A DNA stretch of 64,000 bases from Escherichia coli (lineage in GTDB: Bacteria > Pseudomonadota > Gammaproteobacteria > Enterobacterales > Enterobacteriaceae), in assembly GCF_013315695.1 (NCBI RefSeq), contig NZ_CP054353.1; one strand, written 5' to 3'. The notes beneath the pieces were generated by a model that did no database searches, had not been told where the DNA came from, and saw only the letters and a program-made list of their open reading frames with translations. How positions within the stretch are numbered: position 1 is the stretch's first letter; each line of letters starts with the position of its first letter. A program made the position numbers and the translations under genes. This document shows positions 9,578-9,695 of this stretch, one piece after another.

Positions 9578-9695
9578 GCCTGATAAGAAGCGCATCAGGC
9601 ATTGATGCTCGACTGTCGGATGCGGCGTGAACGCCTTATCCGACTCACAGAATCCGGAGCGCATCAGGTACCGGCAAGGTTACCTGATGCGACGA
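9578..9695. repeat. REP/BIME-like cluster of three palindromic units
   Basis: gcctgataagaagcgcatcaggc; gtcggatgcggcgtgaacgccttatccgac; cgcatcaggtaccggcaaggttacctgatgcg. Confidence 0.6.

What the first reader, a model, noticed from the sequence alone, without database searches (positions are those of the whole stretch)
9578..9695. REP/BIME clusters at three intergenic sites
Typical E. coli repetitive extragenic palindromes occur at 9578..9695 (between ndh and ycfP), 29327..29400 (yceF/rluC) and 62599..62696 (after opgH). They mark transcript ends and are potential sites for gyrase or IHF binding and RNA stabilisation. They are ordinary features, recorded so they are not mistaken for mobile-element ends.
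Basis: seen in the sequence. Interest (0 to 1): 0.15.

Follow-up and report, generated by a model that had tools for sequence, protein, structure and literature searches.

The report
Ordinary E. coli REP/BIME repeats confirmed

Summary
Confirmed and ordinary. The window is E. coli chromosome (thiK–opgH region, reverse of K-12). A scan with published y, z1 and z2 REP consensus sequences finds five units far beyond chance (edit distance 0–4; best of 50 shuffles 7–9). Rfam's BIME-derived models (naRNA4, ES036) hit only these sites in 64 kb.

- **Site 1 (ycfP 3' end, upstream of ndh):** z1 REP (9574-9601), 10-nt linker, y REP (9613-9646), an atypical head-to-head BIME. The 9660-9691 hairpin is not a REP. 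It is single-copy per genome (the y unit has at least 40 copies), though its arms carry REP-head sequence.
- **Site 2 (convergent yceF/rluC):** BIME-2-like pair, a y-derived perfect hairpin (29329-29355), an S-like linker and a y/z REP (29370-29403).
- **Site 3 (opgH/yceK):** textbook BIME-1, y (62599-62632), 35-nt L linker with IHF core AATCAATACATTG, and a perfect z1 (62668-62696). A separate intrinsic terminator follows.

All sites have the same spacer lengths in K-12 and are present in 5362–5418 of 5426 E. coli genomes. Site 1 is also in E. albertii. Function (3' UTR hairpins, IHF at site 3, possible gyrase at site 2) is inferred from the literature, not shown here. Novelty: none.

The parts
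9574..9601 (-). Site 1: z1-type REP (GTAG at 9574-9577 on + strand; ...CTAC form on - strand). Contains the exact IS621 target ATCAGGCCTAC (9574-9584).
   Evidence: Edit distance 3 to the z1 consensus vs best 7 in shuffles. Part of the naRNA4 full-length match 9577-9645. Folds -10.4 kcal/mol, z -3.0. IS621 target exact.
9603..9612 (.). Site 1: short head-to-head linker between z1 and y (TGATGCTCGA)
   Evidence: Read from the sequence. Aligned to the inter-REP linker of the naRNA4 model.
9613..9646 (+). Site 1: y-type REP (GTCGGAT/ATCCGAC subtype) with a degenerate tail (CTCAC instead of CCTAC)
   Evidence: Edit distance 4 vs best 9 in shuffles. At least 40 places per genome in all 5425 genomes with a match. 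Canonical fold of 7-bp stem, 2x2 bubble and 4-bp stem, -18.9 kcal/mol.
9660..9691 (.). Site 1: single-copy perfect hairpin (11-bp stem CGCATCAGGTA/TACCTGATGCG, 10-nt loop), 10 nt after the ycfP stop codon. Arms carry REP-head sequence, but it is not a REP unit.
   Evidence: Median 1 place per genome, present in 5425/5426, at least 99% identical in 4191. No REP consensus or Rfam match. Exact z-head 12-mer CCTGATGCGACG at 9683-9694, the only exact copy in 64 kb. Folds -22.3 kcal/mol, z -4.3. Conserved in E. albertii.
29329..29355 (.). Site 2: y-derived perfect-palindrome hairpin (GCCGGATGCG / CGCATCCGGC, 7-nt loop), 8 nt after the yceF stop. No bubble, no GTAG.
   Evidence: Inverted repeat 100% complementary. 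Aligned by the naRNA4 model as the y unit with a 3-nt deletion. Only d=9-10 to the y consensus. Median 5 places per genome.
29356..29369 (.). Site 2: linker AATCGGTGCTGGCG, resembling the BIME-2 inter-REP linker of the naRNA4 consensus (AAcGGUGCCGACU)
   Evidence: Alignment.
29370..29403 (+). Site 2: y/z hybrid REP (z-type outer stem GCCTGAT/ATCAGGC, y-type centre, tail CAAC instead of CTAC), 28 nt from the rluC stop
   Evidence: Edit distance 4 to y. naRNA4 match 29328-29400, 54.9 bits. Fold.
62599..62632 (+). Site 3: y REP of a BIME-1 (degenerate: GCCAGATGTGG..., tail CCCAC)
   Evidence: Edit distance 4. Pairs with z1 in the transcript fold.
62633..62667 (+). Site 3: 35-nt L linker of BIME-1 with IHF core motif AATCAATACATTG at 62645-62657
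   Evidence: Rfam RF02751 ES036, 49.9 bits, above the gathering score of 37.6. WATCAANNNNTTR match. Linker repeated a median of 4 times per genome.
62668..62696 (-). Site 3: z1 REP, perfect match to the consensus, GTAG at 62668-62671 on + strand, 10 nt after the opgH stop. Contains the exact IS621 target.
   Evidence: Edit distance 0. IS621 target exact.
62553..62581 (-). Adjacent, not a REP: intrinsic terminator hairpin (AAAAAUACCGGC/GCCGGUAUUUUU plus U-run) between BIME-1 and the yceK start
   Evidence: Fold -18.2 kcal/mol, z -4.0. Site of an IS4 insertion with a 13-bp duplication in strain MS 21-1.

Best explanation
These are resident REP/BIME elements of the E. coli core chromosome, ancestral to the species.

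- Site 3 is a canonical BIME-1 (y REP, L linker with IHF site, z1 REP; also called RIB/RIP).
- Site 2 is a single BIME-2-like y-S-z unit whose y member has lost its bubble.
- Site 1 is an atypical head-to-head z1/y BIME, followed by a locus-specific hairpin built from REP-head sequence.

All lie in 3' untranslated DNA: after ycfP, between convergent yceF and rluC, and after opgH.

Inferred mechanism: they are transcribed as part of the 3' UTRs and fold into stable stem-loops. These impede 3'-to-5' exonucleases and act as partial, Rho-assisted transcription barriers. At site 1 this would limit read-through from nagZ-ycfP into the ndh promoter. At site 2 it would work in both directions.

At the DNA level the site 3 linker is a likely IHF site, and the y-containing BIME-2-like site 2 is a candidate gyrase site.

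Shown here: identity, structure, copy number and conservation. Inferred from the literature: every functional step.
For: - Consensus matches far beyond shuffles. The consensus sequences used are in PMC11208160 and PMC12306157.
- Rfam BIME-derived models hit only these three sites in 64 kb.
- High copy number of the y unit (at least 40 per genome) and of the BIME-1 unit (median 17).
- All units are extragenic and next to stop codons.
- All fold stably on the transcript strand, z -3 to -5.
- Spacer lengths equal those of K-12, 399, 111 and 172 bp.
- The flanked sites are present in 5413, 5418 and 5362 of 5426 genomes.
- Site 1 layout is shared with E. albertii.
- BIME typing and the IHF link come from PMC3333891, the gyrase/BIME-2/y preference from PMC6379681, and the terminator-plus-stabiliser role and convergent-gene effect from bioRxiv 10.64898/2026.03.23.713779.
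Against: - No expression, 3'-end, IHF or gyrase data for these loci were available, so function is by analogy.
- The naRNA4 matches at sites 1 and 2 fall 3-5 bits below Rfam's gathering score.
- The y units and the site 2 REP lack an intact GTAG/CTAC, which is required for TnpA-REP binding (PMC3333891).
- The IHF core motif alone is not enriched in the window: 4 found vs 2.4 expected.
- The 2026 preprint stresses that REP effects are context-dependent and that terminal REPs do not generally lengthen mRNA half-lives.
- K-12's record in this collection carries no REP features, so curated REP identifiers could not be checked.
Confidence: 0.95

Rival explanations
1. The hairpins are unrelated GC-rich palindromes or ordinary intrinsic terminators that merely resemble REPs.
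For: - The 9660-9691 hairpin is single-copy.
- The hairpins at 29329-29355, 7956-7985 and 58220-58244 are only borderline to the consensus (d=8-10) and low-copy.
- A true intrinsic terminator sits beside site 3.
Against: - Five units match the consensus at d=0-4, against a best of 7-9 in shuffles.
- The y unit is present at least 40 times per genome.
- Covariance-model matches have E~1e-9.
- No U-tract follows any REP at sites 1 or 2.
Confidence: 0.02
2. They are ends or remnants of a recently mobile element (REPtron/RAYT-mobilised REPIN, MITE or IS terminus), so the loci would be strain-variable insertion sites.
For: - REPs are thought to be non-autonomous elements handled by TnpA-REP, and they are IS targets (PMC3333891, PMC11208160).
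- Both z1 units keep GTAG and the exact IS621 target.
- One strain has an IS4 25 bp from site 3.
Against: - No transposase ORF is adjacent in the window.
- Position, copy number and spacer length are identical in K-12, and the sites are present in 98.8-99.9% of 5426 genomes.
- Site 1 predates the E. coli/E. albertii split.
- The y units have degenerate GTAG.
- The IS4 in MS 21-1 sits in the terminator hairpin, not in a REP, and the BIME is intact.
Confidence: 0.03
3. The sites are independent small-RNA genes (naRNA4-like HU-binding RNAs at sites 1 and 2, ES036/CssrF at site 3) with trans-acting roles in nucleoid organisation.
For: Rfam classifies the matching families as sRNA genes. REP325-derived naRNAs were reported to bind HU (summarised in bioRxiv 10.64898/2026.03.23.713779).
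Against: - No promoter-like sites were found in any of the three regions.
- The Rfam families are themselves BIME fragments.
- Sites 1 and 2 score below the family gathering threshold.
Confidence: 0.05

Closest known systems
BIME-1 (also described as RIB/RIP elements): y REP, L linker with IHF site, z1 REP
   Same: Site 3 has exactly this layout: y (d=4), a 35-nt linker matching Rfam ES036 above its gathering score and carrying WATCAANNNNTTR, and a perfect z1. The GTAG ends face the linker, the unit is single, and it is multi-copy in the genome.
   Different: The y member is somewhat degenerate (GCCAGATGTGG, tail CCCAC). IHF binding was not tested.
BIME-2 / REP325 naRNA4 unit (Rfam RF02564): y REP, S linker, z2 REP, usually in tandem arrays; gyrase target
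   Same: Site 2 aligns over the full 77-position model, including the linker (54.9 bits). Site 1 also aligns full length (56.6 bits).
   Different: - Both score below the 59.5 gathering score.
- Both are single units, not tandem arrays.
- The site 2 y member is a perfect hairpin lacking the bubble, and its z member is 34 nt with a y-like centre.
- Site 1 has z1 in place of z2, which makes it an 'atypical BIME' in the PMC3333891 classification.
Individual E. coli REP/PU types y and z1
   Same: Five units match in sequence, in the imperfect-palindrome fold with a 2x2 bubble, in extragenic location and in high copy number.
   Different: Only the two z1 units keep the GTAG needed for TnpA-REP recognition. 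The hairpins at 9660-9691 and 29329-29355 are perfect palindromes and fail the family definition.

Membership tests
REP (E. coli y/z1/z2 palindromic units) | Sequence match to the y, z1 or z2 consensus | tested here: met
   Five units at d=0-4 vs a best of 7-9 in 50 shuffles. Consensus from PMC11208160 and PMC12306157. Not met by 9660-9691 (no hit) and only borderline for 29329-29355 (d=9-10).
REP (E. coli y/z1/z2 palindromic units) | Imperfect palindrome of 20-40 nt with a mismatch bubble in the stem | tested here: met
   the y units show a 7-bp stem, a 2x2 bubble and a 4-bp stem; the z1 units show an 8-bp stem. 9660-9691 and 29329-29355 are perfect palindromes and do not meet this.
REP (E. 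coli y/z1/z2 palindromic units) | Conserved GTAG/CTAC tetranucleotide at the foot (needed for TnpA-REP binding, PMC3333891) | tested here: inconclusive
   Read from the sequence. Intact in both z1 units (9574-9577, 62668-62671). Degenerate in the y units (CTCAC, CCCAC) and in the site 2 REP (CAAC).
REP (E. coli y/z1/z2 palindromic units) | High copy number in the genome | tested here: met
   The y unit reaches at least 40 places (the cap) in all 5425 genomes with a match. BIME-1 has a median of 17. 9653-9699 is single-copy, so not met for that hairpin.
REP (E. coli y/z1/z2 palindromic units) | Extragenic location, mostly 3' of genes (tandem or convergent pairs) | tested here: met
   ycfP/ndh tandem, yceF/rluC convergent, opgH/yceK tandem.
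BIME-1 | y and z1 in inverse orientation separated by the conserved long L linker; single unit | tested here: met
   Site 3 only: ES036 49.9 bits, above the gathering score; 35-nt linker.
BIME-1 | IHF binding site in L | tested here: met
   The motif AATCAATACATTG at 62645-62657 matches WATCAANNNNTTR. Chance of a hit in a given 35 nt is about 0.001 (2.36 expected per 64 kb). Actual IHF binding is not testable with these tools.
BIME-2 | y and z2 separated by the short S linker | tested here: inconclusive
   The naRNA4 model matches full length at site 2 (54.9 bits) and site 1 (56.6 bits), but both are below the gathering score of 59.5. No unit matches z2 better than y or z1.
BIME-2 | Multiple tandem copies at a locus, variable between strains | tested here: not met
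   Single units only. Spacer lengths are identical in K-12, and one place covers at least 80% of the flanked query in 5413 and 5418 of 5426 genomes.
BIME-2 | Gyrase binding and cleavage | not testable with these tools
   Needs Topo-seq data (PMC6379681, supplementary table DS3) at K-12 ~1.146 Mb and ~1.1658 Mb.

The most novel reading that the evidence does not exclude
The single-copy hairpin at 9660-9691 may be an exapted relic of a decayed head-to-head BIME junction, now kept by selection as a ycfP-specific 3' UTR element.

What is observed: an 11-bp perfect stem whose arms are REP-head sequence, lying 10 nt after the ycfP stop. It is at least 99% identical in 4191 genomes and is present in E. 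albertii.

Possible roles: stalling terminating ribosomes (it falls within the 15-nt REP-to-stop class described in PMC12306157), or insulating the ndh promoter from nagZ-ycfP read-through.
Probability: 0.2. Interest if true: 0.2.

Novelty: already known. Interest (0 to 1): 0.05.

Why it matters
It matters mainly for annotation hygiene.

- These repeats should be labelled as REP/BIME so they are not mistaken for IS or MITE ends, sRNA genes or assembly artefacts.
- Typing them (BIME-1, BIME-2-like, atypical) tells which protein partner (IHF or gyrase) is plausible at each site.
- It separates a locus-specific hairpin and a true intrinsic terminator from the repeats.
- Nothing here challenges current knowledge.

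Tried and rejected
- A fuzzy-regex consensus scan timed out. It was replaced by a vectorised edit-distance scan.
- K-12's RefSeq record in this collection shows no repeat_region features over about 39 kb, so curated REP names could not be retrieved.
- The RepRanger supplements held as text contain no locus table.
- A literature search for ES036/CssrF returned only unrelated papers.
- A first paper search and a first in-paper look-up failed on the minimum term length.
- The simple terminator scanner did not report the opgH/yceK terminator on the - strand. It reported only a weak alternative on + and a doubtful one inside the site 1 z1 REP. Folding showed the real one.
- The IHF core motif alone is not enriched in the window, 4 vs 2.4 expected. 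It counts only in combination with the BIME-1 context.
- The hairpins at 7956-7985 (after ndh) and 58220-58244 (yceI/trhO) were considered as missed REPs. I did not count them as REPs: d=8-9 to the consensus, no Rfam BIME match, and low copy number.
- The cross-species exact-pattern scan for the site 1 hairpin returned E. albertii and a Streptomyces contig. The Streptomyces contig is an unrelated chance palindrome.
- I assumed the window was strain MS 21-1. That was rejected, because MS 21-1 has an IS4 and a 56-bp segment that the window lacks.

Full report
**Context.** The window is E. coli chromosome, in reverse orientation relative to K-12. Rfam places the rne 5' UTR on the + strand. The 9300-10000 segment matches 5425 of 5426 complete E. 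coli genomes and is 100% identical to five of them. Annotation transferred from strain MS 21-1 and from K-12 gives the gene order ycfT ... ndh, ycfP, nagZ ... yceF, rluC, rne ... yceK, opgH.
- Site 1 lies in the 399-bp spacer between the ycfP stop (9702-9704, - strand) and the ndh start.
- Site 2 lies in the 111-bp spacer between convergent yceF (stop 29318-29320, +) and rluC (stop 29432-29434, -).
- Site 3 lies in the 172-bp spacer between the opgH stop (62707-62709, -) and the yceK start (62532-62534, -).
- The three spacers have the same lengths in K-12, and site 1 is 98% identical without indels.

- I scanned both strands with the published REP sequences: y GCCGGATGCGGCGTGAACGCCTTATCCGGCCTAC (PMC12306157), z1 GCCTGATGCGCTACGCTTATCAGGCCTAC and z2 GCCTGATGCGACGCTGGCGCGTCTTATCAGGCCTAC (both printed in the methods of PMC11208160).
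- Five units match at edit distance 0-4: 9574-9602(-) z1, 9613-9646(+) y, 29370-29403(+) y/z hybrid, 62599-62632(+) y and 62668-62696(-) z1 (a perfect match).
- In 50 dinucleotide-preserving shuffles the best distances were 9, 9 and 7 for y, z2 and z1.
- As an independent, structure-aware test, Rfam holds two families that are BIME fragments.
  - RF02564 (naRNA4, the y-linker-z2 unit of REP325) matches full length at 9577-9645 (56.6 bits, E 1.6e-9) and 29328-29400 (54.9 bits). Both are just below the 59.5 gathering score.
  - RF02751 (ES036) matches the site 3 linker above its gathering score.

**Repetitiveness.** The site 1 y unit hits the 40-per-record cap in every genome with a match. The site 3 BIME unit has a median of 17 places per genome even under megablast.

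**Anatomy of site 1.** It reads GTAGGCCTGATAAGAAGCGCATCAGGCA (z1), a 10-nt linker, then TGTCGGATGCGGCGTGAACGCCTTATCCGACTCAC (y).
- The two non-GTAG ends face each other. A z1/y pair with a short linker is an 'atypical BIME' in the classification summarised in PMC3333891.
  - It is strictly single-copy: median 1 place per genome, present in 5425/5426, and at least 99% identical in 4191.
- Its arms nevertheless carry REP-head sequence. The z-head 12-mer CCTGATGCGACG has its only exact occurrence in the window at 9683-9694 (with up to one mismatch, 4 matches against 0.40 expected).
- By inference, it is the relic of a further head-to-head REP junction.
- The whole layout (z, y, hairpin) is also present in E. 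albertii, where the z unit is a longer, z2-like form. The site therefore predates the split of the two species.

**Anatomy of site 2.** It has a perfect hairpin, GCCGGATGCG-gttacgt-CGCATCCGGC (29329-29355), then a 14-nt linker, then GCCTGATGCGGCGTAAACGCCTTATCAGGCCAAC.
- The naRNA4 model aligns the first hairpin as a y unit that has lost three bases and with them the stem bubble.
- It aligns the linker (AAuCGGUGCUGGCG) to the BIME-2 linker consensus.
- That hairpin is low-copy, median 5 places per genome.
- Site 2 is thus a single, somewhat decayed BIME-2-like unit.

**Anatomy of site 3.** It is a textbook BIME-1.
- It comprises a y REP, a 35-nt L linker with AATCAATACATTG (WATCAANNNNTTR, 62645-62657) and a perfect z1, with the GTAG ends facing the linker.
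- The IHF core motif alone is not enriched in the window (4 found, 2.4 expected). One of the four lies exactly in this linker, which has a chance of about 0.001.

**Conservation.** With flanks, the sites are covered at 80% or more in 5413, 5418 and 5362 of 5426 genomes. O157:H7 carries an 11-bp shorter site 2. These are fixed, ancestral loci rather than strain-variable insertions.

**Mechanism (inferred).**
- On the transcript strands every unit folds stably, with z scores from -3 to -5.
- No U-tract follows the REPs at sites 1 and 2, so any 3'-end role there would be as an exonuclease block or a partial Rho-assisted barrier. That is the dual role shown for REP325 and inferred genome-wide for tandem and convergent pairs (bioRxiv 10.64898/2026.03.23.713779).
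- At site 3 a canonical intrinsic terminator (62553-62581, - strand, 12-bp stem plus U-run) lies just beyond the BIME and probably sets the opgGH 3' end.
- The first hairpin begins 10, 8 and 10 nt after the ycfP, yceF and opgH stop codons. That is within the 15-nt class proposed to affect translation termination (PMC12306157).
- IHF is linked to the BIME-1 L linker (PMC3333891), so it applies to site 3 only.
- Gyrase cleavage is enriched in BIME-2, preferentially at y REPs (PMC6379681). Site 2, and less so site 1, are therefore only candidates.
- None of these functions was tested here.

**Comparison and novelty.** Everything matches known families, and membership is itemised in the table. Only the two z1 units keep the GTAG needed by TnpA-REP (PMC3333891). 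Both also carry the exact IS621 target ATCAGGCCTAC (PMC11208160). Novelty: already known. Interest is low.

**Side observations.**
- Strain MS 21-1 has a 1,426-bp IS4 inside the opgH/yceK terminator hairpin, with a 13-bp target duplication (window 62561-62573). The BIME is left intact.
- The window lacks 56 bp of the fhuE promoter region that K-12, MS 21-1 and at least 4893 of 5426 genomes retain.
- REP-like but non-REP hairpins follow ndh (7956-7985) and lie between yceI and trhO (58220-58244).
- A DUF1778/GNAT gene pair sits between rne and flgL and is not annotated in K-12.

Noticed in passing
window 62553-62585 (compare L006 1695-3120 of NZ_CP146670.1): Strain MS 21-1, otherwise 99.9% identical to the window, carries a 1,426-bp IS4 inside the opgH/yceK intrinsic terminator hairpin. 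It has a 13-bp target duplication (window 62561-62573), about 25 bp from the BIME-1, which stays intact. The window has no IS4. The target fits an A-run...T-run palindrome rather than a REP.
   Followed up: yes
window 13707-13720 (fhuE upstream, ATG at 13781): The window lacks a 56-bp segment present in K-12 and MS 21-1. It is flanked by a 12-bp direct repeat (CACACTAAATAT), which suggests a slippage deletion. The missing piece (GAATGCGTATATTTCTCATTTGCATT...) lies about 70 bp upstream of the fhuE ATG and looks like promoter/Fur-box sequence (from memory of the Fur consensus, not tested). The segment is present in at least 4893 of 5426 E. coli genomes.
   Followed up: partly
window 7956-7985 (- strand), 12 nt after the ndh stop codon: A REP-shaped hairpin, GGCGGATGGGGC/GCCTCATCCGCC (-25.7 kcal/mol), with no U-tract. 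It is d=8 to the y consensus, as if the outer stem had compensatory G/C swaps. Median 3 places per genome, variable between strains, and no Rfam BIME match. It may belong to a diverged low-copy REP-like family.
   Followed up: partly
window 58220-58244, between convergent yceI and trhO: A perfect 10-12 bp hairpin, TTGCCGGATG-gcacg-CATCCGGCAA, sharing the y-REP outer stem but lacking the REP centre and tail. Median 2 places per genome. Probably a bidirectional 3' hairpin, of the same type as the first hairpin of site 2.
   Followed up: partly
window ~34283-35067 (+ strand), between rne and flgL: A DUF1778-domain gene followed by an overlapping GNAT acetyltransferase gene, per the MS 21-1 annotation. 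It looks like a type II toxin-antitoxin pair. K-12 has only a ~195-bp spacer with the FlgO sRNA at this position.
   Followed up: no
window 28574-28742 (-), 30603-30939 (+), 53453-53502 (+): Rfam gathering-level matches to the SraB sRNA, the RNase E 5' UTR autoregulatory element and the PyrC leader. All are expected for this K-12-like region.
   Followed up: no
window 62633-62675 and 9577-9645, 29328-29400: The Rfam 'sRNA' families RF02751 (ES036/CssrF) and RF02564 (naRNA4/CssrE) are in effect models of the BIME-1 linker and of a BIME-2 unit. Automated annotation with Rfam will therefore label ordinary BIMEs as sRNA genes.
   Followed up: yes
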